A stretch of 57,263 nucleotides of DNA, from positions 1 to 57,263 of IMG/VR virus record IMGVR_UViG_3300034156_000030, one strand, 5' to 3'. This DNA is from a virus. Taxonomy: Duplodnaviria > Caudoviricetes. Of this stretch, positions 349 to 52,487 are shown one piece after another (the first letter of the stretch is position 1; each line of letters opens with the position of its first letter). Made by a program: the position numbers and the translations under genes. A model generated the notes under the pieces. It was not told the origin of the DNA. It saw only the letters and a program-made list of their open reading frames with translations, and did not search any database.

Positions 349-2994
349 TTAAGTTTTTAAAGCATTAAATAATGCAGATGTAGAGATGCCTAAAGACTCA
401 GCAACTTCTGATTGAGTATAGCCTGAGGCAAGCATTGCTTTAGCACGACTAACACGAGAAGGTGACATCATAGTAGTTGTTCTAGGTGTTGCAAGTTGTT
501 TAATTCTATCTAAGTTAGTGTTCATTAATATCTGTGTTAATTTAGATGGACTAATAGCACCAGCTTGTATAGCCTCCCATTCTCTATCAGTAAGAGGAAT
601 TGGATCTTTCTTTGCTCCTGTTCTAACTCTAGATTCTGCTAATGCTTGATTGCGAACCTTCTTTAGATCATCAGACTCCATACCTGGATTAGCCTGTTTC
701 TTTCTATCTATAATGGAATTGGCTATAACATGTGCCTGTCTTTCTAAAGGTTTATTTTTAAGAGCATTATTCAACTTAGCATTTAATACATCTACTTCTT
801 TAGCATAAGCAAGTCTTGCTGATGGATTATATGGTGTGGGTATTGTTTCGGCAGCGTTCTTTCTAGATGCATTACCTAAAGACTTCAAATTATTAGCATA
901 GGCGGCATAAACTTCTTCTATTGGTCTTCCAGATGATAATGTAAAAGCATTAGAAGTTTCAGCTATTTTTGTAGATTTTATTTGTCTTACTATTGTTTTA
1001 CCATTCTTATCTACATAAGATTCTCCAGTTTTACTATATACTTTTTTTCCAGTATTAACATCAATTGGTCCACCTTCTGCAGCACTTCTAGGTTTTCTAG
1101 CATCTACTCTTGCCTGTGATGATGCTTTAGATATTAATGTTGATGCTCCACCGCTTGAACTATTCTGATATTTGGCTGATAATGAAGCAATTTTATGGTC
1201 TTTAAAAGATTGTCTATAATCCAAGTTATGCTTCTCACTATCTATAACTACCATAGAATGTCTAACAGCCATACATATCTCATCTAAACTAGCACCTTTA
1301 ATAGTCATATCTGTAATGAGATTACTTGCTTCACCCATTTTTGTCTGTTTAGTTTGTGGTTTAATTGGTTTAATATTAGAACCTTCTGGTATTTTATATG
1401 ATGTAATAGGATCAAAATCTTGTAAATTCTTTAATGATGCTGAAGATTTTATTAAACCTTTACTATTAGGTATTACTATTACGGCATCACCATCAAAGTC
1501 TGCTCCAGAAAGTTTTTGTGCTACTTTGGGATGCATACCTATAGCATCTGGTGCTCCTCCCATAACAGCTATTGCATCTTTATTTTTATTATTTACTATA
1601 ACTTGAGGTATTTCAAATGTTCCACCATGAGGATGTCTAATTAGTACAACTGGTTCACCATTATTAAATGTTGGCGCATATATTTCATTTTCTTTCATAC
1701 CTGGAATTGGTAATATAACTTTTGATGCTTGTCTAGGTAAAGCTGCAGCTTTTAAATGGACAGCTGAACTATCACAATCATCTGCAAATGCTTGTAAAAG
1801 TTGTCTTTTTACAACTGGATTGGTTAATTTATTTATTTCATCAAATTCTTCTTGTTTTAATTTTAGTGATAAATCAAGTTGTCTTTTAGCCAAAGGTACT
1901 GATTGTTTTGATAGGATTTGTGATGATATACTTTTAGACCAAGAGCTCCAATCGCCTTCTTCATTAACGATATTAAGTGCACCACTCTTACGTTTAATGG
2001 TTGCTCCAAACGGACTATCAGAATCGATGTTTGTTTGACCATTTTCATCAGTAGTAGTTTTAAGTTTTTTCATAGCACCTAATTTACCAACATCTTTAGA
2101 TTTATTAGTGTTAAACATAATATCCACACCAATAGGCATTTTATCATTATAAATGGCCATACCTTTTAAATAGTGTGTACCATCAACGCTAATACGAACT
2201 TGAGCATATTGTGAACCGCCCAAATCCAAATCTTTAACGCCTCTTCGAAGTTCTATAACGCCATCTTTCTGTGTTCCACCATCTTCGGAAAAATTAATTT
2301 TAATTCTATTAGAGTCAATGCTATGAATAGTTTTATCTATCTCATTAAATGTTCTTCCAAAATCATTAGAATATGCGTTAATTGCTTTTATTTTTCCTAC
2401 ATCTTTTACGACTTCTGACCAACTAGTATCTGGAGCGCCTAAAACTTTCATAATTGTAAATTGTCCAGGTAATCCAACTTGTTCAACGTTAACTCTATGT
2501 ACTTTATATCCTTGTTCTTGTAACTCAGCAACTGCATTATTTAATTTTGTACGGGTTACGCCAAGATATGTTTCAACACCTGCTCCAACATCAATAAATC
2601 TTTTTTGATCTACATTTTCTTTTAGTATACCAGCAGTTACTTTAGTAATAGATGCTCTTTCCGCTAATATGGGATTAAGTATAGAACGAACAGATGATTC
2701 ATTCATTCCCATTCTTCTGCCAATCTCCATATTAGAATAACCTTTATCTTTAAGTTTTAAAATTTCTGTTCTATCTCCTGCTCTTTTTTCTGATTTAACA
2801 AGTGACATTCTAGCTAATAATACAGTTGTAGTTATGCCTTCTCTTTTCGCTATTTCTAAATTACTTAAACCTTCATCACGAAGTTTTTGAATATGAGCTT
2901 TAAAATCAATAGCTCTTTCATAACCGTCTTTTCCGGAGCCCCATGGATACCTTCCAGATTTTCTAGGCATACCATAATGTTTTATCTCACTCAT
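349..2994 (-). CDS. Single-chain phage RNA polymerase (YonO/RdRP-like double-psi barrel) with HTH domains
   Basis: Catalytic GADFDGD motif preceded by RHPH...E; HTH-like segments near both termini (SNMEIGRRMGMNESSVRSI, TQSEVAESLGISTSAL). Confidence 0.8.
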   Translation of the reverse strand: MSEIKHYGMPRKSGRYPWGSGKDGYERAIDFKAHIQKLRDEGLSNLEIAKREGITTTVLLARMSLVKSEKRAGDRTEILKLKDKGYSNMEIGRRMGMNESSVRSILNPILAERASITKVTAGILKENVDQKRFIDVGAGVETYLGVTRTKLNNAVAELQEQGYKVHRVNVEQVGLPGQFTIMKVLGAPDTSWSEVVKDVGKIKAINAYSNDFGRTFNEIDKTIHSIDSNRIKINFSEDGGTQKDGVIELRRGVKDLDLGGSQYAQVRISVDGTHYLKGMAIYNDKMPIGVDIMFNTNKSKDVGKLGAMKKLKTTTDENGQTNIDSDSPFGATIKRKSGALNIVNEEGDWSSWSKSISSQILSKQSVPLAKRQLDLSLKLKQEEFDEINKLTNPVVKRQLLQAFADDCDSSAVHLKAAALPRQASKVILPIPGMKENEIYAPTFNNGEPVVLIRHPHGGTFEIPQVIVNNKNKDAIAVMGGAPDAIGMHPKVAQKLSGADFDGDAVIVIPNSKGLIKSSASLKNLQDFDPITSYKIPEGSNIKPIKPQTKQTKMGEASNLITDMTIKGASLDEICMAVRHSMVVIDSEKHNLDYRQSFKDHKIASLSAKYQNSSSGGASTLISKASSQARVDARKPRSAAEGGPIDVNTGKKVYSKTGESYVDKNGKTIVRQIKSTKIAETSNAFTLSSGRPIEEVYAAYANNLKSLGNASRKNAAETIPTPYNPSARLAYAKEVDVLNAKLNNALKNKPLERQAHVIANSIIDRKKQANPGMESDDLKKVRNQALAESRVRTGAKKDPIPLTDREWEAIQAGAISPSKLTQILMNTNLDRIKQLATPRTTTMMSPSRVSRAKAMLASGYTQSEVAESLGISTSALFNALKT

Positions 2995-3820: not shown

Positions 3821-3894
3821 ATGATCTCCTTTCTAAAAAAATAAGAATCCAATTCTTAAATTAATTCCTATTAAAGGGACATTTTTTATTCCCC

Positions 3895-3922
3895 TCTATT
3901 ATAGGCCATGTTTTTCACGCGA
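3895..3922 (-). promoter_or_regulatory. Phage promoter motif, copy 1
   Basis: TCGC GTGAAAA AC ATGGCC TATAAT AGA, upstream of the VRR-Nuc, exonuclease and RNAP genes. Confidence 0.75.
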
Positions 3923-13492: not shown

Positions 13493-13702
13493 CTATTCAT
13501 CATAATAATCTACTAATATCTCACATAATATTTTTCTGTCATATCTATGAGGAAATACACAGTTTCCAGGATCTCTTCTAAATAAGAAAATATCATTGGT
13601 AGTTAGGAAATCAAATATATTGTATATCTCATTATAAAAATCTTCATAAAATATGTTTTTTTCTGTATCGTAAAAGATATACAATATACTATCATATCCC
13701 AT
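13493..13702 (-). CDS. Hypothetical protein (paralog family A)
   Basis: FYDTEKNIF...IYNIF..LTTNDIFLFRR; start moved to the ATG following the GAGGAGG RBS. Confidence 0.65.
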   Translation of the reverse strand: MGYDSILYIFYDTEKNIFYEDFYNEIYNIFDFLTTNDIFLFRRDPGNCVFPHRYDRKILCEILVDYYDE

Positions 13703-13874: not shown

Positions 13875-14825
13875 TTAGACCTTTTGTACTGTGAAAAGAT
13901 CGTAGATAACTCCGTCGACATTAAAGTCAAGTAGGATACTATTTTCATGACCATTTACGAAATCTCTAGCTCTTGGTCTGTCGCCATCAAATATTCCGAA
14001 GTCGATGAAGTCATCACCAGCGCCTAGAACCCAACCAACAACTGCTCCAGCTTGAGACCTAGGAATTCCGAGAGAATCATATACTTCATTTAGGAATACA
14101 TGACCTCTTGCTCTTAACATGTCATTGAAGTAGTTCTGCTGAGCTTTTAAGAACATGAGATTATATTCTGCGGTTTTAGTCCACTGAGAACACATCTGAT
14201 CAAAGAATCTAGCATATGTGCTGAGGCCATTAGGGTCTTGTTCCACGATAGTTTTCTTTTCAGCTTTATGCTTAACACCATCAGTATCTGTGTAGGCGGC
14301 TTGAGTTATTTCATTAGCTCTTAGACCATTTTTATACATGTAGTCAGCTTGTTCTCCATGTTCCTCAACAACTCTCTTACGATATGCTGCAAAGCCCTCT
14401 TCAACCGCTTTAAAGGCTGCTACAAGAGCCAAATTTCTTTTCTTCATGATATTATGCCCACCAATTATACAGGCGATAGACGCGGCTCCTATAGCGATAG
14501 GAAGGCCATACAATTTTAGTAGTTCTGCGCCAGTTTGAAGATATGTTACCGCCAAATCTTTTCTTTTGTCGTTTTCAGTGTACTCATCTCTAGATATGGT
14601 TCCGTCTAATACCATATCCCAGCCCTCATGAACTTTATCAATCTTATCTTTATGTTCGTCTAAAACATACTCAATCTTTAGAGTTGCTTGACAAGCTAAC
14701 ACGGTTGATGTAATTATGCCGATTACACCAACTCCCAATAATAACTCAGGACTATTTTTTTGCAAGGCTAGTCCACTAGTACCCTTTAATTTAGCAAGAC
14801 CGTTCGTAACTTTTTCGAAATTCAT
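13875..14825 (-). CDS. DUF6353-like phage protein (paralog of 24909)
   Basis: KNSPELL.G.G, two hydrophobic helices, GHVFLNEVYDSLG, LDFNVDG motifs. Confidence 0.7.
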   Translation of the reverse strand: MNFEKVTNGLAKLKGTSGLALQKNSPELLLGVGVIGIITSTVLACQATLKIEYVLDEHKDKIDKVHEGWDMVLDGTISRDEYTENDKRKDLAVTYLQTGAELLKLYGLPIAIGAASIACIIGGHNIMKKRNLALVAAFKAVEEGFAAYRKRVVEEHGEQADYMYKNGLRANEITQAAYTDTDGVKHKAEKKTIVEQDPNGLSTYARFFDQMCSQWTKTAEYNLMFLKAQQNYFNDMLRARGHVFLNEVYDSLGIPRSQAGAVVGWVLGAGDDFIDFGIFDGDRPRARDFVNGHENSILLDFNVDGVIYDLFTVQKV

Positions 14826-14863: not shown

Positions 14864-14931
14864 AAAAAAGAAGAGTGTTGATTATTTTACTAATCTTGAT
14901 TCCTGTCTGCACATGGGAATCCATACTCTTC
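14864..14931 (-). ncRNA. Candidate structured small RNA A (three-way junction, ~68 nt)
   Basis: Starts immediately after a promoter motif; GAAGAGU/ACUCUUC closing stem, two internal hairpins, then a U6 tract; no RBS or ORF. Confidence 0.6.
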
Positions 14932-14956
14932 ATTAAACACCATGTTATTTCTGCGA
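14929..14956 (-). promoter_or_regulatory. Phage promoter motif, copy 2
   Basis: TCGC AGAAATA AC ATGGTG TTTAAT GAA. Confidence 0.75.
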
Positions 14957-24908: not shown

Positions 24909-25748
24909 TTATTTTGGATATTTGGGCGTTACAGTATAATTAAGGACTAAACAAGGTTCTCCATCTTGTGATAATTGAGTACTGAATGTGATTTCAATCA
25001 TACCTTTTTCTACATCCCAACCCATCTGTTCACCAAGTTGTATATCTGGCAATCCGAGTTTGTAATACAACTCATTTATTGAAAGGAACATAGAACTCAT
25101 CAAAGTATAATTCAACTCGTTTACCGTTCTACGAATCTTTTCTATATCACTACGGAAATATCGTCCACTTAAGCTGTCATAACACATAACTGAACCATTA
25201 CCTGTAATTAATACTTCGTTCGTAGAAACTGGATTCTTTTTTATTCTGTCTGCTGATATTTCATCACGGATTTTAGTTTCTTTGTTGGCTCCGATAGTTT
25301 CAATAACTTTAGTCTGATATTCCTTAAATGCTGCCTCTGTGATGCCATATATGCTCGCTAGGGCTGCATTACGACGAAGAGAAATATGATTAGCACCAAT
25401 TATACAGCCTATAGTTACTAAGCCTAATACGGTCGCTGGTACGTATTCTCTCCATGTAAGTTGTATGATTTCTTTTTTTGTTAACATATGAGTAGTATCA
25501 CTCCACGTATAACCTTCTTCAACTCCTAGCCATTCTTCAAAAGTAAGATGACTACTAATACTATCTTCTTCATACATATCATATATATGATTATCTACGA
25601 TAGATAAAGCTTTTGGTGTTGCTCGAATAGCCATTATAGTCGTACTTACAAGTCCAGCAACTGCCACACCTGTAAGAATAGTTGGACTATTTTTAGAAAT
25701 GACTCCACCGAGATTTTTTATCATTAGTGAAATATTTGTTAACTCCAT
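24909..25748 (-). CDS. DUF6353-like phage protein (paralog of 13875)
   Basis: KNSPTILTG, RATPKA, CYDSLSGRYF, SINELY..LGL. Confidence 0.7.
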   Translation of the reverse strand: MELTNISLMIKNLGGVISKNSPTILTGVAVAGLVSTTIMAIRATPKALSIVDNHIYDMYEEDSISSHLTFEEWLGVEEGYTWSDTTHMLTKKEIIQLTWREYVPATVLGLVTIGCIIGANHISLRRNAALASIYGITEAAFKEYQTKVIETIGANKETKIRDEISADRIKKNPVSTNEVLITGNGSVMCYDSLSGRYFRSDIEKIRRTVNELNYTLMSSMFLSINELYYKLGLPDIQLGEQMGWDVEKGMIEITFSTQLSQDGEPCLVLNYTVTPKYPK

Positions 25749-26345: not shown

Positions 26346-27119
26346 TTATTCTTTATTATTGATATGTATATCAGCAAGTGATTTATATTCAACTTTACCT
26401 ATAGCTTTTAAATTGTCGGAAAGTGTGTCATATTTAACATTTGGAAATTCAATACCTTTAAGAATATCATCTAACTCGGGTTTAGTATCATATGTCCAAT
26501 AAGCACAAAGCATATTCCAGACGAATGCTCTATCATGTGGTTCGTCCGTATCGCCCCTTAGATGTTTGAGAAAATGCCTAACACCAGAATCAATGTAACA
26601 ATGTAGTGGCATTCCTTTCATCCAATTATTTTCACAATATTTTTTAGCACCATCTTCAAAGTGTATTGATACTTCCAACATCAAAGTTGTTAAATTCGTT
26701 TTTTCATTATCCGCAAAAATACAAAGTGCCTGATTCAAAAATGCTGTATTTTTTGTTCTTTTGAAATGCTCAATAGAGTTTAATTCATCCCTCATAAGAA
26801 TTCTTGATAGTACACTTAATGGTAATAAATCACATCTACCTTTTCCATCACTGATATCTCTTACTGCACCTGTACCAAAATCTCTTCTTTCGCCATTGTC
26901 TTTTAAATCCATAGTTAATACCTCTCCTTCTTTATTTGTAAAGAATACTGTGTTACCAATATCATCTTGTAAGAAGTCTATGTGTCGACACGATTCATAT
27001 CTAACTCTAAATGTTGAAAAAGTGACTGCGATAACTTCCCCAAATATGGTAGTAGTATGTCCATTATAAGGTCTATATACTGTCGCCTTAATAAAATCTC
27101 CAATTTTAGCACTAATCAT
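26346..27119 (-). CDS. dATP/dGTP diphosphohydrolase (DUF5664-like) with N-terminal SH3-like domain
   Basis: F.TGAVRD...GKGR.DLLP, GAKKY..NNW.KG, S..RH...D.DE.H...WN; internal RBS and ATG at 26912. Confidence 0.8.
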   Translation of the reverse strand: MISAKIGDFIKATVYRPYNGHTTTIFGEVIAVTFSTFRVRYESCRHIDFLQDDIGNTVFFTNKEGEVLTMDLKDNGERRDFGTGAVRDISDGKGRCDLLPLSVLSRILMRDELNSIEHFKRTKNTAFLNQALCIFADNEKTNLTTLMLEVSIHFEDGAKKYCENNWMKGMPLHCYIDSGVRHFLKHLRGDTDEPHDRAFVWNMLCAYWTYDTKPELDDILKGIEFPNVKYDTLSDNLKAIGKVEYKSLADIHINNKE

Positions 27120-27217
27120 TATTTCACCTCCATTATTATGATTTATATATTAAATATAACCTTATTTTGACCTTAAAATAGGTTAAAAATGACCAAATTA
27201 ACAATAGGGCATATAGA

Positions 27218-27328
27218 AGCCATTTTAAGCGTTTTTACCCTTTACAGGTCATATTATATTACCTACTAATCAAAAGTGTCTTAGAATCAATCCTCAGAGG
27301 TCGTTTTTTCTAAAAGTGCGAAAAAAAT
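27218..27328. repeat. 111-bp direct repeat, copy 1 (palindromic core)
   Basis: Matches 30637-30747 with 3 mismatches by eye. Confidence 0.9.
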
Positions 27329-27662: not shown

Positions 27663-27742
27663 AAAAAAAGAGTCTTCGGATTCGAACCGATTTCGCCATT
27701 ATTGCTAATGGTGTTTTACTTTTTTAAACTAGCTCACTCTTC
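27663..27742 (-). ncRNA. tRNA-like RNA with non-canonical anticodon arm and acceptor stem
   Basis: UA-GUUU...AAAC D arm, CCAUUA-GCAA-UAAUGG arm, UCGG-UUCGAAU-CCGA T arm, AAGAGU/ACUCUU end stem, U7 tract; no encoded CCA. Confidence 0.7.
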
Positions 27743-28228
27743 ACTATAGACTGTGTTATTCTTGCGATCTTGTATGAATACCCATTTACCAATATCTTGA
27801 AAATTAAAAGTTTCATAATGTCTTTCTCCCACATATGTAACTATAAAGGTATATTCATCCATTTGTGTGATTTTACCAAATCTCATTTTACTACCATTAT
27901 GAGGTTTCACACTAACTGAATCTCCAATAGAACAGACAGCCACTGCAAAGTGCATAAGATTTAATACTTTATCTTTTTTCTTCTGTATCATTTCTTTAAT
28001 AGAAACTGAATCACAATCCGTTACATATACGTCTTGTTTATCGCATTCCTCTTTAACTAGTTCATAGACAGCCCTAACGTCTATAAATTCTTGTTGCATT
28101 TTATCAACACTAGAGGGCTCTCGATTCCATTTGTTATCTATTCCAAAGCGTATAGCTTTAGAAGCTTCTTTTTGTAACTCACTACACTCTTCCATTAAAC
28201 AAACTAATAAATATTCTACTTTAGTCAT
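27734..28228 (-). CDS. MazG-like NTP pyrophosphohydrolase with C-terminal SH3-like domain
   Basis: LMEECSELQKEASKAIRFG...EFIDV (EExxE...ExxD). Confidence 0.7.
   Translation of the reverse strand: MTKVEYLLVCLMEECSELQKEASKAIRFGIDNKWNREPSSVDKMQQEFIDVRAVYELVKEECDKQDVYVTDCDSVSIKEMIQKKKDKVLNLMHFAVAVCSIGDSVSVKPHNGSKMRFGKITQMDEYTFIVTYVGERHYETFNFQDIGKWVFIQDRKNNTVYSEE
27740..27767 (-). promoter_or_regulatory. Phage promoter motif, copy 6 (drives the tRNA-like RNA)
   Basis: TCGC AAGAATA AC ACAGTC TATAGT GAA, embedded in the 3' end of the MazG-like ORF. Confidence 0.72.
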
Positions 28229-29530: not shown

Positions 29531-29815
29531 TTAAAATTTTACTTTAATTAATTTCTCTGGATTTAATGCTGACCAATTTTCGTAAAGTTCTTTCAATTTT
29601 ATGTCAGGAAATTCTTGGTTACACCATTTCATTGTCTCTTCAAAACTGATTATCGCGCCTACTCTAACACCTTTCATAAATATTTTTTTACACATATAGA
29701 AAGTACCTAAAGTTAAAACCCCACAACCAGCCATTAATGCAATTATTTGTAACTCTCTTTTGTTTTTCTTTAAAAAATCAATTTTGTGATCTTTCATATT
29801 TATTACTTTTCCCAT
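29531..29815 (-). CDS. Single-TM membrane protein
   Basis: Start moved to MGKVIN after the GAAAGGG RBS. Confidence 0.6.
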   Translation of the reverse strand: MGKVINMKDHKIDFLKKNKRELQIIALMAGCGVLTLGTFYMCKKIFMKGVRVGAIISFEETMKWCNQEFPDIKLKELYENWSALNPEKLIKVKF

Positions 29816-29852
29816 TATAATCACCCTTTCAAAATATTTATATATTAGCGAC

Positions 29853-30005
29853 AAAAAAAGAATCCGTAATCGCATCGAACGATTTTGCTGCCCAACTAAT
29901 TGTTTGGCTACCTATGACAGTGCCAAGACAGTCCGTATTTGAGTTCTAGTGCTACCTAGTCTTTATTCTATGGACATTTACATTCCATACAACTCTATTC
30001 TTTTC
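29853..30005 (-). ncRNA. Candidate structured RNA C (~153 nt, multi-domain, with a T-arm-like hairpin)
   Basis: Follows a promoter motif; AAAAGAAU/AUUCUUUU end stem, three-way junction, second helical domain, AAUCG-UUCGAUG-CGAUU hairpin, U7 tract. Confidence 0.65.
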
Positions 30006-30030
30006 ATTATAGTAAATGTAATTTTCGCGA
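30003..30030 (-). promoter_or_regulatory. Phage promoter motif, copy 7
   Basis: TCGC GAAAATT AC ATTTAC TATAAT GAA. Confidence 0.78.
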
Positions 30031-30562: not shown

Positions 30563-30636
30563 AATACATCAAATTAAGCCCTAAAAGACCCCTATTTTGA
30601 CCTAAAATAGACCAAATCAACGCTAAGGCCAATAGG

Positions 30637-30747
30637 AGCCATTTTAAGCGTTTTTACCCTTTACAGGTCATATTATATTACCTACTGATCAAAAGTGTCT
30701 TAGAATCAATCCTATGAGGTCGTTTTTTCTAAAAGTGCGAAAAAAAT
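30637..30747. repeat. 111-bp direct repeat, copy 2
   Basis: Matches 27218-27328 with 3 mismatches. Confidence 0.9.
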
Positions 30748-31339: not shown

Positions 31340-31367
31340 CTCACTAAAGGGCAAGTTTATTACGCGA
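31340..31367 (-). promoter_or_regulatory. Phage promoter motif, copy 11 (late/early boundary)
   Basis: TCGC GTAATAA AC TTGCCC TTTAGT GAG. Confidence 0.75.
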
Positions 31368-32070: not shown

Positions 32071-33315
32071 TTACGTTAAGTGATATTCTAGTTCATAACT
32101 AACACTCATACCATATCCAGCTGGTCTTACAGGTGCATCGCCTGGTAGATGATACATACAGAATATTCCTGGAATCATAATATTAGCAGTGGCTGTATCT
32201 GTTTGAGCAAAGGCTAAAAAGAATGTGTCATAGGCATATCTTGATATTTGTAAATTAGAAGTAGATGAACCAGTCCCTAAATAACCAACTACTGTTTCCG
32301 TTAGCAAATCAAATATGTAACCAACACTATTCATACCAAATGCTAAAATGAAGTTGTCGTAGTTGATACATTTAACATTACTTGGATTTATGGCTCCTTT
32401 ATCATATCCAGTTGCAGGTGCCATCGTCATATCTACTCCAGCAATATTATTTACAAAATCGTATCTTGTCATTGTGGTAAATATTCTATATGCTTTCCCT
32501 CCATGAACATAGAAAGGACTTTGAAAGTTAACAAGATTTGAAGGGGACCATGTATTTACTACAGTAGTAAATGTAGCATCAGAGAATTCTCTCATACGTC
32601 TATTACCAGCTGTACCATGATATGTCCATACAAAGAAATGACCTGTATCTGGCTCAAATCCCAAATATGTAGAATATCCACCACCCGGATAAGTTATAGC
32701 TGCTGTATTTATAGTAATATCTGAACCACTATATAAGTCACATATTCTAACTATACCAAGAGTATCTATGTTATATATTTTAGTACCAACGGCTATACAT
32801 TGAGTTGATGGATTTGATGCGAAAGGTCCATAATTAGGTATCATACCCATGGGGAACAAATTTACTTCTGGTGATGAACCGAATTGATGACCCATAGCAA
32901 CTTTTTTAACCACACCCAATGCTTGATATGGGAAAAAATCATACACATGTTTTGAGTAATATCCGTACGTAGTTCTTAGAAAACGTGTACTTAATCCCGC
33001 ATTCCAACCACCCTTATAATTACCACTTGCTGTTGCTAGAGGCATACCATATCCTATTGGTGTACCAGTAATATAAGGAAAGCTATTATCTAATGTATCT
33101 TTACCACCTGCGCCAGCCAAATATAAAGTGGCTGCAGCATTATAACTTGTGTCGTAAAAATATCTGTTAAATAACATCTTCTCATATATATGATTATTAC
33201 CTTTTACTTGTTCTTTTATTTTACCAGTAATAGGATCTGTATAATCAATACAAACTCGACCTATTCCAGTATTAGTTAATATTTTGTCTTTTGGTAGTAT
33301 CGCAATCTCTTTCAT
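32071..33315 (-). CDS. Putative receptor-binding / baseplate protein
   Basis: Beta-rich and G/T/Y-rich; last gene of the tail module. Confidence 0.55.
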   Translation of the reverse strand: MKEIAILPKDKILTNTGIGRVCIDYTDPITGKIKEQVKGNNHIYEKMLFNRYFYDTSYNAAATLYLAGAGGKDTLDNSFPYITGTPIGYGMPLATASGNYKGGWNAGLSTRFLRTTYGYYSKHVYDFFPYQALGVVKKVAMGHQFGSSPEVNLFPMGMIPNYGPFASNPSTQCIAVGTKIYNIDTLGIVRICDLYSGSDITINTAAITYPGGGYSTYLGFEPDTGHFFVWTYHGTAGNRRMREFSDATFTTVVNTWSPSNLVNFQSPFYVHGGKAYRIFTTMTRYDFVNNIAGVDMTMAPATGYDKGAINPSNVKCINYDNFILAFGMNSVGYIFDLLTETVVGYLGTGSSTSNLQISRYAYDTFFLAFAQTDTATANIMIPGIFCMYHLPGDAPVRPAGYGMSVSYELEYHLT

Positions 33316-33327
33316 ATATTAACCTCC

Positions 33328-33960
33328 TTATGGATTATAAGTTACAGTAACATTCTCAATACCACTCAGATGAGTAAATACATCATTAACTATTGATGCA
33401 CCACCATAAGCTAATTCAGAGATTACAATAGATGTATCAAATTGTGTGTATGATAATGACACACTATAAGCATTACCTGTAAATGATGGTATAATGCCCA
33501 TATTAAATGTTGTGGATTCAAATATATATGCTTGTTTGATGTAGGAACTCAATCCAGCAACAAAGAAAGATACTGAGAATACTGGTAATTTAGCACCAGA
33601 TGCCAACTTAAGTAATGTTTCTGATTTATTGATGACTGTTATTCCAAATACCTGAGTTGAAATATCGACATATATCTTGTATGTGATACCATCTACAGAC
33701 TCTACTGCAGTTGGGGTTAAATAGGCATTATTACTGGTTATAATTATGCTTTCTCTAAACATCCCAAGACTAAACGATTGTACTGCTTGTTGGAAGTTGA
33801 TATAGAAGAAAGAATATACCCCAGAGTCATTATAAACTGTGGGAGTATAAACTATCACGTTTGTTTTGGCATTGATTAATCCTTTAGTTGCCATACCACA
33901 TAAGAAACCATTTTGAAATTCAATTTCTGCTGCACTCATGGCATAACCTCCTCGTGCCAA
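33328..33960 (-). CDS. Putative minor tail protein
   Basis: Follows Tal; F.NGF.CG.A.KG N-terminus; beta-rich. Confidence 0.5.
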   Translation of the reverse strand: MARGGYAMSAAEIEFQNGFLCGMATKGLINAKTNVIVYTPTVYNDSGVYSFFYINFQQAVQSFSLGMFRESIIITSNNAYLTPTAVESVDGITYKIYVDISTQVFGITVINKSETLLKLASGAKLPVFSVSFFVAGLSSYIKQAYIFESTTFNMGIIPSFTGNAYSVSLSYTQFDTSIVISELAYGGASIVNDVFTHLSGIENVTVTYNP

Positions 33961-35927
33961 GTTACTGGAGTAACAACCATATCTTCAGCAACTAATTGAG
34001 TTATTCGTCCGTCGCCATCTTTAGTCCATGTGAACTTTACAATTTCATCACTATAGACTGCCTTGAATCCATTTGTATAGAAGTCTAGACTATCCAACTT
34101 ATATGGATGTAATATTATACCACCATTAGTTAGAGCTATTCTTCTTAATGTACCGTCCGTAGAAGTGTAGTAATCTAAATATAATCCGTCTGTACCTTTA
34201 TAGATGAACGCTTTTCCATTATCACCTACACCAGTTCCAGCACCTAATGTAAGTTTTGGAATATATGCGCCACTCTCATCATGAAAAGATTGTTCCATTT
34301 TGACGGTTTCGTTGTACTTATAAATATAAACAGGGAAGTCAGTAACAGTACTAGACATTACTTCTTTTTTGTCATTCATCCAATAACAAACTTCACCATT
34401 ATGATTTCTGTATGATTCAAAGTTATCAAAATGATTCGTAACATTCATAACAACATATTTAACTTTATAATCTCTCGCACCACCACTCATTTGGTAATAA
34501 GATGTGGAATTAAGTGCTCTATATTGTCGACCAGCTACAAAAGCATCCCAAGCGTTCATCTCGGCGCCATTTGAGAATATAATTTCACCAGTTGTTTGAT
34601 TGATGGATACACTCATATAATATGTATCAGTGAATGGGTCTAATGTCATATCCCATACGCCAGATATACCTTGTATTGCTGCATATAAAATAGCAATATA
34701 TGCTTGTATGAATTGTATTGTCTGACCTACTATTTTGATATAATTAACATCACTTGTATCACTATTAAGATATTTATGTATCTTAACTGATGTATCTAAC
34801 TGAGAAACTGTAAGTTCTGCTATATTACCATTATCAGCATATAGATTTGGTGTGATAAGTACATTTGGATGTAATATACCATCAAATATAAGTGACATTT
34901 CTGAATGTTCAGGGTCATTAACGTCCTCGTATTCAAAGTACATTCTATCTTTCCATACAGTGCCACTACCATCACCTGATTGAAATTTCATCTCATCTGC
35001 CCGAAAATACGACCGGGCTTTTTTGTCAGCTCGAACATTCTCGAAGCCAAATTCCGGACCTATTCGAGTTCCATTATAAAGTTTATCCTTAACAACAGTA
35101 GATGTTTCTATCCTATACAGATGTTCTGCTAAACCATTCACATATTTAGAAAATTGGAAAGTAACATCACTGATATCATAAACATTTCGATTAATGCTGA
35201 CAACTCTCAGACTCTCTCTAATATGTAATTCGTTTTGTATTAGTATTATTTCATCACCTATATTATAAACATCTCCAGGTAAATATATAGGAGTGCAAGT
35301 ATATGTTATGGTTGGATTACCGTCCTTATCACGTTGTCTTTTATTAATTTCTTTAGATATAATCTTGACATTACGATTTTTAATAGCAGGTTTAACTGAA
35401 GTAGAACCTCTATGATGAACTATTGATACTGTAAATTTATCAAATACAATATCACCTGCAAGATAAGCAACAAACTCCATTAAAGTTGCACGTCTACTTT
35501 TAGTTTCTTCAATAGAATAAGCAGTATTATCTTCAAACTCTACTGTACCAACCGTAAAGGGTGTATCTTCAAGAATCTTACCTAGGATATATGTTGGTGT
35601 TCCCAATTCTGCAAAGTATTCTAAGTTGTATAGTTCCTGATTCAAACGATATGATATATGTTCCGATTGTATTACTACGGAAAAGCTACCATCTTCGTTC
35701 GAATTTTTCTTAATATATGCCGTATCAAACCAATCATTATCAACCTCAAATATAGAATCTTCATTTATTAAATCACTTAATTTTTGATCTAATATTGCAT
35801 CAAAATCAAGAGTATTTTCACCGTTTAGCTCTTCAATACGATTAGAAGAAATGGTGCTTTTTATTATACCCAATCTTTCAAAACTAGTATTAAGTATTCT
35901 AATCATAACACCATTCCTCCTTATCAT
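33936..35927 (-). CDS. Tail-associated (Tal, prophage endopeptidase-like) protein
   Basis: EELNG.NTL.F, EHISY.L, ILE.TPFTVG.V; located downstream of Dit. Confidence 0.75.
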   Translation of the reverse strand: MIRRNGVMIRILNTSFERLGIIKSTISSNRIEELNGENTLDFDAILDQKLSDLINEDSIFEVDNDWFDTAYIKKNSNEDGSFSVVIQSEHISYRLNQELYNLEYFAELGTPTYILGKILEDTPFTVGTVEFEDNTAYSIEETKSRRATLMEFVAYLAGDIVFDKFTVSIVHHRGSTSVKPAIKNRNVKIISKEINKRQRDKDGNPTITYTCTPIYLPGDVYNIGDEIILIQNELHIRESLRVVSINRNVYDISDVTFQFSKYVNGLAEHLYRIETSTVVKDKLYNGTRIGPEFGFENVRADKKARSYFRADEMKFQSGDGSGTVWKDRMYFEYEDVNDPEHSEMSLIFDGILHPNVLITPNLYADNGNIAELTVSQLDTSVKIHKYLNSDTSDVNYIKIVGQTIQFIQAYIAILYAAIQGISGVWDMTLDPFTDTYYMSVSINQTTGEIIFSNGAEMNAWDAFVAGRQYRALNSTSYYQMSGGARDYKVKYVVMNVTNHFDNFESYRNHNGEVCYWMNDKKEVMSSTVTDFPVYIYKYNETVKMEQSFHDESGAYIPKLTLGAGTGVGDNGKAFIYKGTDGLYLDYYTSTDGTLRRIALTNGGIILHPYKLDSLDFYTNGFKAVYSDEIVKFTWTKDGDGRITQLVAEDMVVTPVTWHEEVMP

Positions 35928-49712: not shown

Positions 49713-52487
49713 TTATGGTGTAGTTTCTATTTCAAAATAATCTCCGATGTCTAAAGCTATACTGAAATAACCAGTTGTGGCACTATACCATACAAATTCT
49801 ACGCCTTTTCTTTCTTGTGAACCATTTAATATAACTTTGTATCCTTTTCCATTATTAAATGATGTGCCGTCACCACCAAGATTTATCAAAGATGCATCTC
49901 CAGAAATGGAAGCAACACCATTGGCTAAGCCCAAACCAGTTGTAACATCAAATAACTCAGCTGGTATAAATGCTGTAGTTACTTCATACTTACCTATTAA
50001 TGGAAAAGTTGGAGATGTAGAATGCCAAATATTTGTATGATGTACTCCATTAACATCTACAATGAAATCCATAGTTTTTCCACTATCTAATGTGAATATA
50101 TTGGCACCAGCATCGTTCCAATTTTTAATTAAAACTGGTTTAGACGATAAATTTATTATTATGGTTGTTGTGGCTAATAAAAAATCGAAGAATAAACGAT
50201 ATCCATCATTAGGTATGCCCGATAATGTTATTTGCTGTGCATTTAGTTGACTTGGACTTAATTGTGTATAATCTAAATTTGTTATGTCTATATACACATT
50301 TTTATTTGTTAAGTCGGTGTATGCTCCAGAAAAGAAGGTTTCTGGTAATGTTGGTTTATCTGTTAAAGCATTATAACTACTTAAAGTTAATTTTGTAACT
50401 GTGGTATAATTGAAGAATGATGCAACTTCAGCTAGTCCTAATGTTGATGTTCCACCAGAATTATCATTAGTTATTGTTGCAACGCCATCTGTATTATTAG
50501 CAATGGTGTATAATCTTTCAGTATCGCCACTTGCATTTGGTAAAAATACATTAAATGGTGCTGCAGGCATACCAAATAATATTATATCTGTTACATTTAA
50601 TTGATTGGCTGGTACAATAACATCTCCACCAGCACTACAATCCAATTGGAGAGTTTTTAGTCTTCCAACAGATTCAAGTATGGTAGTTCCGTCACTAAAC
50701 AATTCTCTAACTTCTCCAACTTGTATTGGTTTTGAACTACCTCCCAAATCGGTCCTAAACTGGATGTATCCACTGCTATTATTAAATACAGTAAACTTTT
50801 TTACAGTTCCAGCATAGGGTTTTACGTTAGCATGTGTTCCATAAGAACCTGTAAAGATTAAAGTATTAGCTTTACTTTGTTCTTCCGTCATTTGATAATT
50901 ACCACTGGTTATTTCTATAGTAAGTATATCTACCACAGATGATGGTTTACCAGTTAAGTCATTATATGATCCTGAAATTGCCACAGGTGCTAAGTTATCA
51001 TGGTTTGTAACTAGATTAACATTGCCTCCAGCAGAATCTATTACCAAAGTACCGTTAGTATTAGCGGCTAATGTTGGTAATACCTGTGGTAAATAATTCT
51101 TATTTTTAATTGATATGGCATGATTAGTACGATTATACAATAGAATATGAGTTTCTATAGTCAAATCAAATTCTAAATCAACAACATCATCTGGTGTACC
51201 GTTTATATATAATGTATTCATTTTTTGTTCTGTAGGTGTTAATATTATTGCATCGTGTCCGTTAGGTATATATTTAGTCGCCGAGGTATTGGTAAGATCG
51301 CTATAGTTTCCAGAAAACCTAAATCCTACATGACATGAACCACTCAAATCAATGGCTATATCTATAGCCGAATTAGATGCTAAACTAAACAATTCCACAT
51401 TTCCATTTATTCTTATAGAGATTGTTTTTGATGATTCGTTAATTATAACAGCATTTGTCTGAACCGCAGTGTCTAATATTACTTGAAAATCATCTACAGG
51501 TGTGCCAGTTAATACTATTTTAGATGCACCTTGTTGAATTGCATTTAAACTAGTAGAGCTACCAGATGAAATATCTATTTCAATATTAGCATATATTAGA
51601 TCAACTAATCTTCCTGAGAACAATGATGGCTTATTGGTCAAATCATTATAATTACCCGAAAATCCAGCTTCAACAATACCTGTATGATTATCATAGAGTA
51701 CTGTTTTTACACCCCATGAAGGAATTATAACTGCCGGGCCAGATGGAAAATCAACTGACTTTATTGTAGCCACTTCTGGACCTGCATTTATAAATGTTAC
51801 TGGTGCGTAATTACCATTAGTCATTATAACATCAAATGGATTGGTCATTGCATAACCGTCTAGGTATAAACAGTTATATGATTCATCTTCTGCTGTTAGA
51901 TGTGTTACAGTTTGTGGATTCATGAATTTAGTTTTATTAAATCCACCATTCATAGCAATTATTTCTGTATATGTTGGTGTTAAACCAATATTTCCTTGAG
52001 GACCTGTTTCTCCTTGAATACCCTGAGCGCCCTGAGGACCTGTTTCTCCTTGAATACCCTGAATACCTTGGGCTCCAGTTTCTCCTTGAACGCCTTGAAT
52101 ACCCTGAGCGCCTTGAATACCTATTTCTCCTTGAATACCTTGGGGACCTTGAGTACCTGGTTCGCCTGGAATATCACTACTTGCTCCTTGAATACCTTGA
52201 ATACCTTGAATACCTTGAATACCTTGCGCTCCAGTTTCTCCTTGAGGACCTTGAACCCCCTGAGGACCTATTTCTCCTTGAACTCCCTGTATGCCTTGAG
52301 GACCTATTTCTCCTTGAACTCCCTGTATGCCTTGAGGACCTATTTCTCCTTGAGGTCCAACTGTGCCACCACTTTCATTTAATTCTTCTATTGTTGCTTC
52401 TAATTCATCACCAAGTCTAACCGATGCATTTCTTACTCTTGATAAATCATTCATTGCTTTGATTTCTTTCGGTGTTAATTGTTCCAT
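49713..52487 (-). CDS. Collagen-like fibre protein with repeated SGxYxDL modules
   Basis: Long Gly-X-Y run (GPQGIQGE...) followed by beta domains separated by FSGNYNDLTNKP-like linkers. Confidence 0.8.
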   Translation of the reverse strand: MEQLTPKEIKAMNDLSRVRNASVRLGDELEATIEELNESGGTVGPQGEIGPQGIQGVQGEIGPQGIQGVQGEIGPQGVQGPQGETGAQGIQGIQGIQGIQGASSDIPGEPGTQGPQGIQGEIGIQGAQGIQGVQGETGAQGIQGIQGETGPQGAQGIQGETGPQGNIGLTPTYTEIIAMNGGFNKTKFMNPQTVTHLTAEDESYNCLYLDGYAMTNPFDVIMTNGNYAPVTFINAGPEVATIKSVDFPSGPAVIIPSWGVKTVLYDNHTGIVEAGFSGNYNDLTNKPSLFSGRLVDLIYANIEIDISSGSSTSLNAIQQGASKIVLTGTPVDDFQVILDTAVQTNAVIINESSKTISIRINGNVELFSLASNSAIDIAIDLSGSCHVGFRFSGNYSDLTNTSATKYIPNGHDAIILTPTEQKMNTLYINGTPDDVVDLEFDLTIETHILLYNRTNHAISIKNKNYLPQVLPTLAANTNGTLVIDSAGGNVNLVTNHDNLAPVAISGSYNDLTGKPSSVVDILTIEITSGNYQMTEEQSKANTLIFTGSYGTHANVKPYAGTVKKFTVFNNSSGYIQFRTDLGGSSKPIQVGEVRELFSDGTTILESVGRLKTLQLDCSAGGDVIVPANQLNVTDIILFGMPAAPFNVFLPNASGDTERLYTIANNTDGVATITNDNSGGTSTLGLAEVASFFNYTTVTKLTLSSYNALTDKPTLPETFFSGAYTDLTNKNVYIDITNLDYTQLSPSQLNAQQITLSGIPNDGYRLFFDFLLATTTIIINLSSKPVLIKNWNDAGANIFTLDSGKTMDFIVDVNGVHHTNIWHSTSPTFPLIGKYEVTTAFIPAELFDVTTGLGLANGVASISGDASLINLGGDGTSFNNGKGYKVILNGSQERKGVEFVWYSATTGYFSIALDIGDYFEIETTP
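51990..52360. repeat. Collagen-coding tandem repeats (9/27-bp period)
   Basis: ccttgaata and ccttgaggacctatttct repeats on the plus strand. Confidence 0.9.

What the first reader, a model, noticed from the sequence alone, without database searches (positions are those of the whole stretch)
29853..30005. A 153-nt multi-domain RNA ending in a TpsiC-like arm
Seen: after the shared three-way junction comes a second domain (CUGUC/GGCAG outer stem enclosing UUGGC/GCCAA). It is followed by AAUCG-UUCGAUG-CGAUU, a 5-bp stem with a 7-nt UUCGA loop in T-arm geometry, just before the end stem and U7. UAGGUAGC and UACGGA each occur twice. Inference: a larger ncRNA combining the new module with a tRNA-like 3' end, architecturally reminiscent of Y RNA or tmRNA-type mimics.
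Basis: partly seen in the sequence, partly recalled or inferred. Interest (0 to 1): 0.7.

Follow-up and report, generated by a model that had tools for sequence, protein, structure and literature searches.

The report
Phage small RNA with tRNA-like arm
A 153-base non-coding RNA gene of an uncultured phage appears to be an enlarged, much-changed relative of a family of tRNA-shaped RNAs without anticodons, which related phages place directly behind their own promoters.

Summary
The RNA lies on the minus strand (30005->29853) of a 57-kb phage genome. Every stem, the UUCGAUG hairpin, the U7 and both repeated words are present. The fold is more stable than shuffles (z -3.1).

It is a discrete non-coding unit. 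A phage promoter (TCGC-N15-TATAAT, 10 copies in the window, conserved in relatives) ends one base before it. Its first 9 nt pair with the 9 nt running into U7. A strong RBS and an orphan gene follow.

It matches no Rfam family, tRNA or tmRNA, and the phage encodes no Ro protein.

Context supports a tRNA link. In relatives that encode a YonO-like RNA polymerase, the same promoter is fused to tRNA-derived RNAs. These keep D and T arms, mostly have abnormal anticodon loops, and have an acceptor stem running into a U-tract (62 unique elements; cloverleaf covariation 0/500 shuffles). A second window RNA (27742->27663) scores 47.9 bits on that family's model.

The 153-nt RNA does not (12.9 bits). 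Three 132-134-nt relatives share its promoter, layout and T-arm-like hairpin, with one compensatory change, but similarity is weak (13.5 bits, E 0.54).

Caveat: thermodynamic folding of this RNA breaks the T-arm. Function is inferred: a terminated, stable tRNA-mimic RNA that also attenuates the downstream gene.

The parts
30006..30030 (-). Phage promoter motif TCGC-N15-TATAAT (TCGC 30030-30027, TATAAT 30011-30006), ending one base before the RNA
   Evidence: Repeat families D2/D4/D6. There are 10 minus-strand copies in the window. The motif is conserved and strand-biased in 5 of 5 related phage records, while the reversed-pattern control finds almost nothing. A logo over 299 instances was made.
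29853..30005 (-). The 153-nt RNA (RNA 1) from the first base after TATAAT to the end of U7
   Evidence: Sequence. Fold z -3.12. No Rfam, tRNA or tmRNA match.
29997..30005 (-). 5' arm of the closing (end) stem, GAAAAGAAU
   Evidence: Pair probabilities 0.7-1.0 with 29863-29855.
29855..29863 (-). 3' arm of the closing stem, AUUCUUUUU, which overlaps the U-tract
   Evidence: Only GAAU/AUUC is specific pairing; the rest is A-run against U-run.
29941..29995 (-). Three-way-junction domain: GAGUU/AACUC enclosing AUGGA..UCCAU (29988-29970) and CUAG-GUAGCA-CUAG (29959-29946)
   Evidence: Read. Only the CUAG hairpin is favoured thermodynamically (P 0.97). Relatives L098up, L139 and L143 have an analogous layout.
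29888..29931 (-). Domain 2: CUGUC/GGCAG enclosing the hairpin UUGGC-13 nt-GCCAA (29926-29904), whose loop ends in GGUA like a D-loop
   Evidence: The inner hairpin has P 0.88-0.98 and the outer stem about 0.
29868..29884 (-). T-arm-like hairpin AAUCG-UUCGAUG-CGAUU
   Evidence: Matches GTTCRANNC with 5 of 5 stem pairs. Relatives keep it as GUCG-UUCGACG-CGAC, with an A-U to G-C change. It is not in this RNA's own MFE.
29853..29859 (-). U7 tract
29531..29830 (-). RBS GAAAGGGTGA (29830-29821) and gene P0001 (ATG 29815; 94 aa, one predicted membrane helix). No promoter motif lies between U7 and this gene.
   Evidence: The only match in 5.8 billion proteins is itself.
27663..27767 (-). Paralogous unit: promoter (TCGC 27767-27764, TATAGT 27748-27743) and RNA 2 (27742-27663). 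RNA 2 is a cloverleaf with a canonical T-arm UCGG-UUCGAAU-CCGA, and its end stem runs into U7.
   Evidence: Model R1, built without this sequence, scores it at 47.9 bits, E 2.2e-9.
14864..14956 (-). Promoter and RNA 3 (14931-14864): end stem GAAGAGU/ACUCUUC plus two hairpins and U6. It has no T-loop. This is the plain three-way-junction module.
3835..3922 (-). Promoter and RNA 4 (3897-3835): a 5'-terminal hairpin, then a terminator hairpin and U7
   Evidence: The homologous promoter in relatives is followed by simple or branched stems plus a U-tract.

Best explanation
The 153-nt stretch is a discrete, non-coding RNA gene of the phage.

Shown:
- A conserved phage-specific promoter (TCGC-N15-TATAAT followed by purines) ends one base before it.
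- Its first 9 nt can pair with the 9 nt that run into U7, closing a multi-branched RNA in the manner of an intrinsic terminator.
- No promoter lies between U7 and the next gene.
- The same promoter-to-U-tract design recurs at three other places in this genome and in many related phages that encode a YonO-like RNA polymerase.
- In those relatives the enclosed RNA is often a tRNA-derived cloverleaf. It has D and T arms, usually an abnormal anticodon loop (short tetraloop caps seen in examples), and an acceptor stem made partly from the promoter's purine-rich start.

Inferred:
- This RNA is an expanded, strongly diverged member of that tRNA-derived lineage. It keeps a T-arm-like hairpin next to the closing stem and two GGUAGC loops that resemble D-loops.
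- Transcription starts at the G right after TATAAT.
- Most transcripts end at U7 and give a stable, end-protected small RNA that displays a tRNA-elbow-like module to some tRNA-binding factor of the host or phage, acting as a mimic or decoy.
- The fraction that reads through U7 provides the mRNA of the orphan membrane-protein gene, so the element also attenuates that gene.
For: Promoter:
- 10 copies in the window.
- Conserved in 5 of 5 related records, with strand bias.
- Over 299 unique instances, the first base after TATAAT is G in 228 and A in 68, and the second is A in 217 and G in 78.

Structure:
- z -3.12.
- Closing stem pair probability about 1.

Class design:
- About 13 of 39 promoters first collected are followed by a stem that starts 1-3 nt after TATAAT and abuts a U-tract before the RBS.

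tRNA-derived family:
- 73 IMG/VR loci, 62 unique elements.
- ARAGORN gives 4 typed tRNAs, 20 'tRNA-???' and 38 with no call.
- In the 12 loci scanned with Rfam, 8 promoter-adjacent elements reach the tRNA gathering score, among 11 tRNA matches in all. Tetraloop caps are visible.
- In 40 of 47 the outer helix starts within 2 nt of TATAAT.
- The cloverleaf on 30 sequences is 81.4% paired against 61.9% in shuffles (0 of 500 reach it), and 37-51% when the partners are slid.
- 5 of 5 tested contigs that bear such elements encode the RNA polymerase homologue.

Paralogue:
- RNA 2 scores 47.9 bits on a model built without it.

Relatives of this RNA:
- L098up, L139 and L143 have the same promoter, 132-134 nt, a closing stem, several hairpins, and the hairpin GUCG-UUCGACG-CGAC 7 nt before the closing strand.
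- In all 3 of 3 the next promoter follows at once, so they are stand-alone units.
- L098up lies in the same early-gene region, directly before an RNA 2-type element.
- The model built from them finds this RNA as its best hit in the window, aligned end to end.

Expanded intermediates:
- In phage G004, G004b has a closing stem from +1, an extra 5' hairpin, a D-arm, a GAAA-capped mini stem, a T-arm and a 6-nt spacer.
- G004a passes Rfam tRNA at 31.9 bits with a broken acceptor stem.
Against: - No expression data exist and the transcription start is not mapped.
- If TATAAT is a sigma-70-type -10 box, the start would lie about 7 nt downstream and the 5' arm would not be transcribed.
- Kinship of this RNA to either family is not statistically shown. 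R1 gives 12.9 bits, E 1.6. R2 gives 13.5 bits, E 0.54. BLAST matches only the 3' 32 nt at 78%, E 0.37, and nhmmer finds nothing.
- The MFE of this RNA breaks the T-arm, the junction stem and the outer stem of domain 2.
- Much of the closing stem is A-run against U-run. Purine-rich starts pair with U-rich terminator tails even across small genes.
- The helix beside U7 is AU-rich, and the nearest compact hairpin is 8 nt away, so this is a poor intrinsic terminator by the usual rules. The terminator scan did not list it.
- Unlike its three relatives, it is followed by an RBS and not by a promoter. That fits a purely cis-acting leader equally well.
- The family alignment was selected on the T-loop and on acceptor complementarity. 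Only the D-stem and anticodon-stem counts are free of that bias.
Confidence: 0.5

Rival explanations
1. It is a purely cis-acting 5' leader or attenuator of the orphan gene P0001. The closing stem plus U7 stops most transcripts from the promoter, and read-through, possibly modulated by a factor or by alternative folds, sets the gene's expression. The released RNA has no function of its own, and the tRNA-like pieces are relics.
For: - There is no promoter motif between U7 and the RBS of P0001.
- In 37 of 62 related elements an RBS-like site, not a promoter, comes first after the U-tract.
- Mutually exclusive pairings exist: UUGGC/GCCAA against GCCAA/UUGGG, and T-arm against rod.
- At the promoter near the polymerase gene, simple hairpin plus U-tract forms take the place of branched forms.
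Against: - In all 3 of 3 closest-architecture relatives, and in 9 of 62 tRNA-like elements, the unit is followed at once by another promoter, so there the RNA is the only product.
- A plain attenuator does not need 130 nt of branched structure, or conserved D and T arms across a family.
Confidence: 0.25
2. It is a terminator for read-through from upstream that overlaps a sigma-A-type promoter. TATAAT is a -10 box and transcription starts about 7 nt downstream. Transcripts from this promoter then lack the 5' arm and run into P0001 with a long structured leader. Only transcripts coming from upstream form the closing stem and stop at U7.
For: - TATAAT is the sigma-70/sigma-A -10 consensus, and a weak -35-like TTGGCT lies 18 bp upstream.
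- The 5' arm occupies just the 6-9 nt that would be the discriminator.
Against: - In 7 of 34 tRNA-like elements with at least 6 of 7 acceptor pairs, the acceptor strand starts 1-3 nt after TATAAT. These cloverleaves could not form from a start at +7.
- The base right after TATAAT is G or A in 296 of 299 promoters, as at the start sites of phage-polymerase promoters.
- Units flanked by promoters on both sides make little sense under this model.
- The upstream gene already has its own hairpin plus U-rich tail at 30054-30041.
Confidence: 0.1
3. It is a decayed remnant of one or two phage tRNA genes with no present function. The stable fold and the T-loop are leftovers.
For: - It scores at noise level on the tRNA-like models and has no Rfam hit.
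- A related phage carries real tRNAs.
- The T-arm is not in the MFE.
Against: - The intact consensus promoter, closing stem and U7 are all kept.
- The fold is far more stable than shuffles.
- Relatives keep the same layout with a compensatory change in the hairpin.
- In a 32% G+C genome an unconstrained G+C-containing hairpin would be expected to decay.
Confidence: 0.1
4. It is a Y RNA-like (YrlA) or tmRNA-like mimic in the strict sense.
For: The 5' and 3' ends pair, and a T-arm-like hairpin sits next to the 3' strand, as in the tRNA-like domains of YrlA and tmRNA (the comparison itself is recalled knowledge).
Against: - No Rfam match at E up to 10.
- ARAGORN finds no tmRNA.
- There is no credible tag reading frame.
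- The phage has no TROVE/Ro gene, while the control genomes did give matches.
Confidence: 0.03

Closest known systems
tRNA genes and tRNA-derived pseudo-tRNAs of phages (Rfam RF00005)
   Same: - T-arm-like hairpin with a UUCGAnn loop closed by G-C, next to a helix formed by the two ends.
- Loops ending in GGUA, like D-loops.
- Relatives of the same design reach the tRNA gathering score (30.7-59.5 bits).
   Different: - This RNA is 153 nt and has no anticodon arm.
- There are 4 nt between the T-stem and the closing strand, and a U7 where the CCA end would be.
- It gets no tRNA score.
- Family members mostly have abnormal anticodon loops (20 'tRNA-???' and 38 with no call among 62). Tetraloop caps can be seen.
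Stable RNAs 'species 1 and 2' (bands C/D) of the phage T4 tRNA gene cluster (recalled, not checked in any call)
   Same: They are phage-encoded stable small RNAs of about 80-140 nt. They are associated with tRNA genes, have tRNA-like features, and have no known function.
   Different: As recalled, the T4 RNAs are cut out of a tRNA precursor. Here each RNA has its own promoter fused to its 5' end and a U-tract at its 3' end. No sequence comparison was made.
Lambda pR'-6S RNA-tR' and Q antitermination (recalled)
   Same: A promoter is followed after about 150-200 nt by a terminator in front of genes. The default product is therefore a short RNA, and gene expression needs read-through.
   Different: No Q-like protein or binding site was identified. 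There are several such units per genome. The RNA body derives from tRNA, and its 5' end forms the terminator stem.
Bacterial Y RNA-like YrlA and the tRNA-like domain of tmRNA
   Same: Paired ends plus a T-arm, giving tRNA mimicry without decoding.
   Different: There is no Rfam or ARAGORN match, no Ro gene and no tag reading frame.
Rfam RF02435 SpF41 sRNA (Streptococcus)
   Same: Its consensus is an acceptor-like stem, an arm and a GGUUCGAAUCC T-arm, followed by a terminator. The window's RNA 2 aligns to it along its whole length.
   Different: The score is 15.6 bits against a gathering score of 52, E 5.4, so RNA 2 is not a member. The 153-nt RNA gives no match at all.
tRNA scaffolds and tRNA-like 3'-end elements such as mascRNA and plant-virus TLS (recalled)
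   Same: They use a tRNA fold to stabilise or process an RNA or to recruit tRNA enzymes.
   Different: Different kingdoms and different contexts. No processing or aminoacylation signal was tested here.

Membership tests
tRNA (RF00005 / ARAGORN) | Score at or above the gathering threshold of the covariance model, or a detector call | tested here: not met
   No tRNA match for 29840-30020 even at E up to 10. ARAGORN finds 0 genes in the window.
tRNA (RF00005 / ARAGORN) | T-arm: a 5-bp stem, a 7-nt loop UUCRANN and a G53-C61 closing pair | tested here: met
   AAUCG-UUCGAUG-CGAUU at 29884-29868. It is not part of the MFE fold.
tRNA (RF00005 / ARAGORN) | Anticodon arm with a 7-nt loop, and a 7-bp acceptor stem directly following the T-stem | tested here: not met
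   No such arm is present. A 4-nt spacer (ACGG) separates the T-stem from the closing strand.
   12.9 bits, E 1.6, and misaligned. The paralogue RNA 2 scores 47.9 bits, E 2.2e-9.
   The same holds in 40 of 47 family members.
   It is the best hit in the window and aligns end to end, but at only 13.5 bits, E 0.54. The model rests on 3 sequences that are 93% identical.
   It lies in the same genome region as in G006.
Intrinsic (factor-independent) terminator | A stable, usually G+C-rich hairpin directly followed by a U-run | tested here: inconclusive
   U7 is present, and the helix next to it is the long-range closing stem (P about 1). That helix is AU-rich, and the consensus scan did not list it. 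Termination itself cannot be tested with these tools.
Y RNA / YrlA | Rfam match and a Ro (TROVE) partner | tested here: not met
   No Rfam match. There is no TROVE gene in the phage, while 2 of the 14 control genomes gave matches. The host genome is unknown.
tmRNA | tRNA-like domain plus a tag reading frame; detector call | tested here: not met
   ARAGORN finds none, and there is no Rfam match.
Riboswitch or other known cis-regulatory leader | Match to a curated aptamer family | tested here: not met
   There are 0 matches at gathering score in the window and only noise at E up to 10.

The most novel reading that the evidence does not exclude
Siphophages that carry a YonO-like single-chain RNA polymerase encode an undescribed class of small RNAs. 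These are tRNA bodies that have lost the anticodon loop. They are fused at their first nucleotide to the phage's own promoter, and their acceptor stem doubles as the terminator. The 153-nt RNA is an expanded multi-domain member. These abundant mimics of the tRNA elbow and acceptor would act in trans. They could be decoys for tRNA-directed host defence nucleases or toxins, or baits for tRNA-processing enzymes. The conserved TCGC-N15-TATAAT|GA motif would be the long-sought promoter of this polymerase family.
Probability: 0.2. Interest if true: 0.85.

Novelty: new variant of a known kind. Interest (0 to 1): 0.62.

Why it matters
If the reading is right, the finding opens a family, not a single oddity.

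- Dozens of uncultured phages place tRNA-shaped RNAs that mostly cannot decode directly behind a phage-specific promoter, and use the acceptor stem plus a U-run to end the transcript.
- That would be a new use of the tRNA fold in phages, as mimic, decoy, scaffold or terminator.
- Standard tools report these genes as 'undetermined tRNAs' or miss them.
- The analysis gives a concrete candidate promoter and start site for the YonO-type RNA polymerases. The 2017 YonO paper (PMC5467207, passages read) says the promoter was still to be determined.
- The 153-nt RNA shows how far such a tRNA-derived unit can be rebuilt.
- It also offers testable cases: in vitro transcription and termination with both polymerases, RNase P and CCA-enzyme assays, and defence-system screens.

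Tried and rejected
- **Near relatives of the locus.** None were found. The searches were blastn of 501 nt and megablast of 10 kb against 50,697 phage records. I also ran a 21-mer scan and pattern scans of IMG/VR (2 chance hits, read), and protein-anchored scans with P0001, P0003 and the 414-aa neighbour. P0001 matches only itself among 5.8 billion proteins. The MazG-like neighbour has 4 weak partial relatives.
- **Sequencing runs.** No RNA holder is listed. Three DNA runs (peat metagenomes) hold the phage. One may be the source, and the other two hold only short identical pieces, so they gave no variants and no expression data.
- **Pattern TCGTTCGAYGCGA-N4-12-TTCTTTTT.** IMG/VR gave 2 loci: L098, and 1 chance hit in a coding repeat. 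The metagenome scan gave 31 loci, of which 2 are real (L139, L143) and 29 are chance or coding.
- **Sequence searches with the RNA.** nhmmer against 1.13 Mb of held loci found nothing, and BLAST found only the 3' 32 nt. Model R2 over 1.0 Mb of related loci found only its own source.
- **RNA 2 region.** A search against named phages found no match.
- **Long closing stems.** A scan for closing stems at more than 95 nt mostly returned small genes with ordinary terminators. Complementarity between the purine-rich start and a U-rich tail is therefore weak evidence on its own.
- **Literature.** Four full-text searches on YonO promoters and on tRNA-like, anticodon-less phage RNAs listed nothing that describes this class. 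I saw only listings and abstract starts, except PMC5467207, where I read passages. Supplements were not seen.
- **Small peptide.** Considered and rejected. The frames inside the RNA are 4-6 codons long and have no RBS (read).
- **The 145-nt duplicated element.** The two copies (27184-27328 and 30603-30747) are a different element, not a copy of this RNA.
Full report
**What the window is**

The window is the whole record: one 57,263-bp contig with 32% G+C. Essentially all long reading frames lie on the minus strand.

It is a tailed phage. It has a large terminase, a fused primase-polymerase, a helicase, an anaerobic ribonucleotide reductase, ThyX, dUTPase and MazG-like enzymes. It also has an 881-aa protein of PHROG 4291, annotated 'RNA-dependent RNA polymerase' (1208 bits), that is, of the YonO-like two-barrel kind.

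The nearest named relatives are only about 50-55% identical in these proteins. They are Arthrobacter, Streptomyces, Gordonia, Lactococcus and gut phages. The DNA occurs in peat metagenome runs.

**The observation**

The RNA of the finding is on the minus strand, 30005 down to 29853.
- the end stem;
- the GAGUU/AACUC junction with two hairpins;
- CUGUC/GGCAG around UUGGC/GCCAA;
- the hairpin AAUCG-UUCGAUG-CGAUU;
- U7;
- the doubled words.

The strand folds better than all 200 shuffles (z -3.12). The opposite strand does not (z -1.42).

The thermodynamic ensemble keeps only three of the helices: the end stem, the CUAG hairpin and UUGGC/GCCAA. It replaces the junction stem, AUGGA/UCCAU, CUGUC/GGCAG and the T-arm by pairing of the 5' 24 nt with the T-arm region. 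The MFE is -39.2 kcal/mol.

**Surroundings**

Directly upstream lies one copy of a repeated motif, TCGC-N15-TATAAT. With a slightly looser -10 there are ten minus-strand copies. All lie in the non-structural half. Their TCGC starts are at 31367, 31121, 30562, 30328, 30030, 27767, 22978, 19412, 14956 and 3922. Six of them run straight into an RBS 14-22 nt later.

Four are followed by a structured stretch that ends in a U-run before the RBS:
- this RNA;
- RNA 2 (27742-27663);
- RNA 3 (14931-14864);
- RNA 4 (3897-3835).

In RNA 2 and RNA 3 the MFE itself is a closing stem made of the first 7 nt after the -10 box and the 7 nt before the U-run, enclosing further hairpins.

Downstream of U7 there is no promoter motif. 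There is the RBS GAAAGGGTGA and ATG 29815 of a 94-aa protein, which matches nothing but itself among 5.8 billion proteins. The longer frame from AUG 29875 starts inside the hairpin loop without an RBS, so translation of the RNA region is unlikely.

**Known families**

- Rfam gives nothing at gathering score in the window and only noise at E up to 10 around the RNA.
- ARAGORN finds no tRNA or tmRNA.
- The phage has no TROVE/Ro gene.
- RNA 2 aligns along its whole length to the tRNA-shaped Streptococcus sRNA SpF41, but at 15.6 bits against a threshold of 52.

**The T-loop clue**

GTTCRANNC occurs three times in the genome, against 8.3 expected. Only two copies have at least 4 of 5 flanking stem pairs. 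One is in this RNA. The other is the canonical GGUUCGAAUCC of RNA 2. Each lies a few nt before a U7 behind a promoter copy.

**Relatives**

This locus has no near relatives in any collection. Phages that share the polymerase at 41-70% identity do exist in IMG/VR. They carry the same promoter motif, strand-biased, in 5 of 5 records, while the reversed-pattern control finds almost nothing.

Over 299 unique instances, the base after TATAAT is G in 228 and A in 68. The next base is A in 217 and G in 78. Sixty-two of these instances came from a pattern that required two purines there.

At the promoter two genes before the polymerase gene, relatives show either a simple hairpin plus U-run or a branched version. 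In both, the stem starts 1-3 nt after TATAAT.

**A tRNA-derived family**

Scanning four related genomes for T-arms showed tRNA-like elements behind promoters. One of them (G004a) passes Rfam tRNA at 31.9 bits with a broken acceptor stem.

A pattern joining the promoter to GGTTCRAWTCC 40-70 nt later found 73 IMG/VR loci, mostly on contigs of 50-64 kb. These hold 62 unique elements.
- Many of them show a normal D-arm (TAGCTCAGTTGGTAGAGC and variants) and a T-arm.
- In the examples read, an 'anticodon' stem is capped by UUCG, GAAA or another short or odd loop.
- The acceptor stem's 5' strand is the purine-rich start after TATAAT, and its 3' strand runs into a U-run, with no CCA.
- ARAGORN types 4 of them, 'tRNA-???' and misses 38.
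- In the 12 loci scanned with Rfam, 8 promoter-adjacent elements reach the tRNA gathering score, among 11 tRNA matches in all.
- In 40 of the 47 that have a U-run, the MFE outer helix begins within 2 nt of TATAAT. The sequences were cut at TATAAT, and purine starts pair readily with U tails, so this count is soft.

I aligned 30 of the 33 non-window elements with at least 6 of 7 acceptor pairs (L062, L114 and L130 were left out).
- The cloverleaf is 81.4% paired, against 61.9 +/- 1.3% in shuffles (0 of 500 reach it) and 37-51% when partners are slid.
- The D-stem is 91% paired, with CG<->UA exchanges.
- The T-loop and the acceptor were selected for, so the D-stem and anticodon-stem counts are the unbiased part.

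In 7 of 34 elements the acceptor strand starts 1-3 nt after TATAAT. That cannot be transcribed from a start 7 nt downstream. I therefore infer that transcription starts right after TATAAT, as at phage-polymerase promoters.

All 5 of 5 tested element-bearing contigs encode the polymerase homologue. The YonO paper says its promoter was still to be determined. It also argues that YonO lacks the conserved domains of multi-subunit polymerases, among which it names the flap used in hairpin-dependent termination (PMC5467207, passages read).

**Is the 153-nt RNA a member?**

A covariance model (R1) built without any window sequence finds RNA 2 at 47.9 bits (E 2.2e-9). It finds this RNA only at 12.9 bits (E 1.6) and misaligns it. 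RNA 3 scores 9.8 bits. So RNA 2 is a member, and this RNA is not demonstrably one.

A BLAST trace led to L098. Its contig, G006, encodes a polymerase 65% identical over the part of the gene that lies on the contig. Three promoters stand there in tandem:
- the first drives a 132-nt RNA (L098up);
- the second drives an RNA 2-type cloverleaf (53.1 bits on R1);
- the third drives another closed RNA.

A pattern from the shared hairpin found two more copies of the 132-134-nt RNA in metagenomes: L139 and L143, 2 real among 31 loci.

These three RNAs share with the window RNA:
- the promoter;
- a closing stem;
- a 5' junction-like domain;
- middle hairpins;
- the hairpin GUCG-UUCGACG-CGAC, 7 nt before the closing strand and U-run.

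Against AAUCG/CGAUU, one pair is changed on both sides (A-U to G-C), and in their MFE the hairpin forms. In all three the next promoter follows at once, so the RNA is the only product of its unit.

The model built from them (R2) has this RNA as its best hit in the window, aligned from first to last nucleotide. The score is only 13.5 bits (E 0.54). R2 finds nothing else in 1.0 Mb of related loci.

G006 carries its RNA cluster in the same early region, between homologues of window genes 31065-30781 and 25748-24909. Gene order is not fully collinear.

G004b is a 109-nt unit. It has a closing stem from +1, an extra 5' hairpin, a D-arm, a GAAA-capped mini stem, a T-arm and a 6-nt spacer. It shows that expanded intermediates exist.

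**How it most likely works**

Shown:
- promoter, closed structure and U-run form one compact unit;
- the design is recurrent and conserved;
- the tRNA-derived body covaries.

Inferred:
- the unit yields a small RNA, end-protected by its closing stem, that carries a tRNA-elbow-like module;
- because no promoter follows, read-through supplies the mRNA of the orphan gene, so the element also attenuates it.

What the RNA does in trans is unknown. A tRNA mimic or decoy for a tRNA-binding enzyme or defence factor is the most natural guess, but no call tests it.

A purely cis-acting leader remains a serious rival. In 37 of 62 related elements an RBS-like site comes first after the U-run, against 9 where a promoter comes first. 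A sigma-A-type start that would leave out the 5' arm is less likely, for the reasons above.

**Limits**

- There are no expression data. No RNA run is listed, and the DNA runs showed no variants.
- The start site is unmapped.
- Homology of this RNA to either family rests on layout, position and a 32-nt similarity, not on significant scores.
- The literature searches cover only the held open-access library, and supplements were closed.

Noticed in passing
window minus strand; TCGC starts at 31367, 31121, 30562, 30328, 30030, 27767, 22978, 19412, 14956, 3922; also loci L007-L132: A conserved motif of about 30 bp, TCGC-R-N-AAA(T)TTACA-N4-C-TATAAT followed by G/A-A-R-R. It occurs only on the gene strand of the non-structural half and is shared by distant phages that encode the YonO-like polymerase. 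It is a candidate promoter with its start right after TATAAT.
   Followed up: partly
window 27184-27328 and 30603-30747 (minus strand): Two copies, 92% identical, of a 145-nt non-coding element. It has a TCGCAC word, a sigma-70-like TTGAT(C/T)...TATAAT, and a downstream structured stretch (GGTC..TTTTAGGTCAAAATAGG). Each copy lies before a gene. It is unrelated to the RNA of the finding.
   Followed up: no
window 27650-27522 (minus strand): After RNA 2 and the RBS AAGGAG, the position where other genes have ATG holds ATT. It opens a frame of about 42 codons for a small hydrophobic protein (KNFFDNIIKGIILVLIALALALTLMMFSILLLIFSR). This may be an ATT-initiated gene.
   Followed up: no
window 349-2994 (minus strand): An 881-aa protein of PHROG 4291 ('RNA-dependent RNA polymerase', 1208 bits). 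It is the last gene of the array, and many relatives annotate it only as a helix-turn-helix protein.
   Followed up: partly
L165 (G006) 32421-34830: The relative G006 has at least four promoter-driven small RNA units in a row within 2.4 kb: a 132-nt multi-hairpin RNA, an RNA 2-type cloverleaf, a closed RNA of about 100 nt containing GUUCGAUGG, and a T-arm-bearing unit at 34735.
   Followed up: partly
L128, L093, L123 (IMG/VR): A further type of promoter-fused RNA of about 130 nt. Its closing stem starts at the first nucleotides, its T-arm is in the 5' half, and it has a D-loop-like hairpin (..UUUUAGUUGGG..) near the 3' end. It has no Rfam match in L128 or L093.
   Followed up: no
L054 (G003) 13552-13648: A tRNA-like element with a perfect 7-bp acceptor stem directly after a canonical T-arm. 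Its body is about 60 nt and contains a second T-arm-like hairpin. Rfam tRNA gives 20 bits, below threshold. An RBS follows at once, with no U-run.
   Followed up: partly
window 51958-52413: A repeat array with 9/27/36-nt periodicity inside the 924-aa reading frame 49713-52487, suggesting a collagen-like Gly-X-Y stretch in a structural protein.
   Followed up: no
window 13875-14825 and 24909-25748: Two paralogous DUF6353 genes. The first is preceded by RNA 3. The second has a 55%-identical homologue just after the small-RNA cluster of G006.
   Followed up: no
window 26346-27119: A 257-aa protein with the N-terminal domain of dATP/dGTP diphosphohydrolases (PF18909). It lies beside MazG-like, dUTPase and ThyX genes, which suggests an unusual nucleotide-pool or base-modification module.
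   Followed up: no
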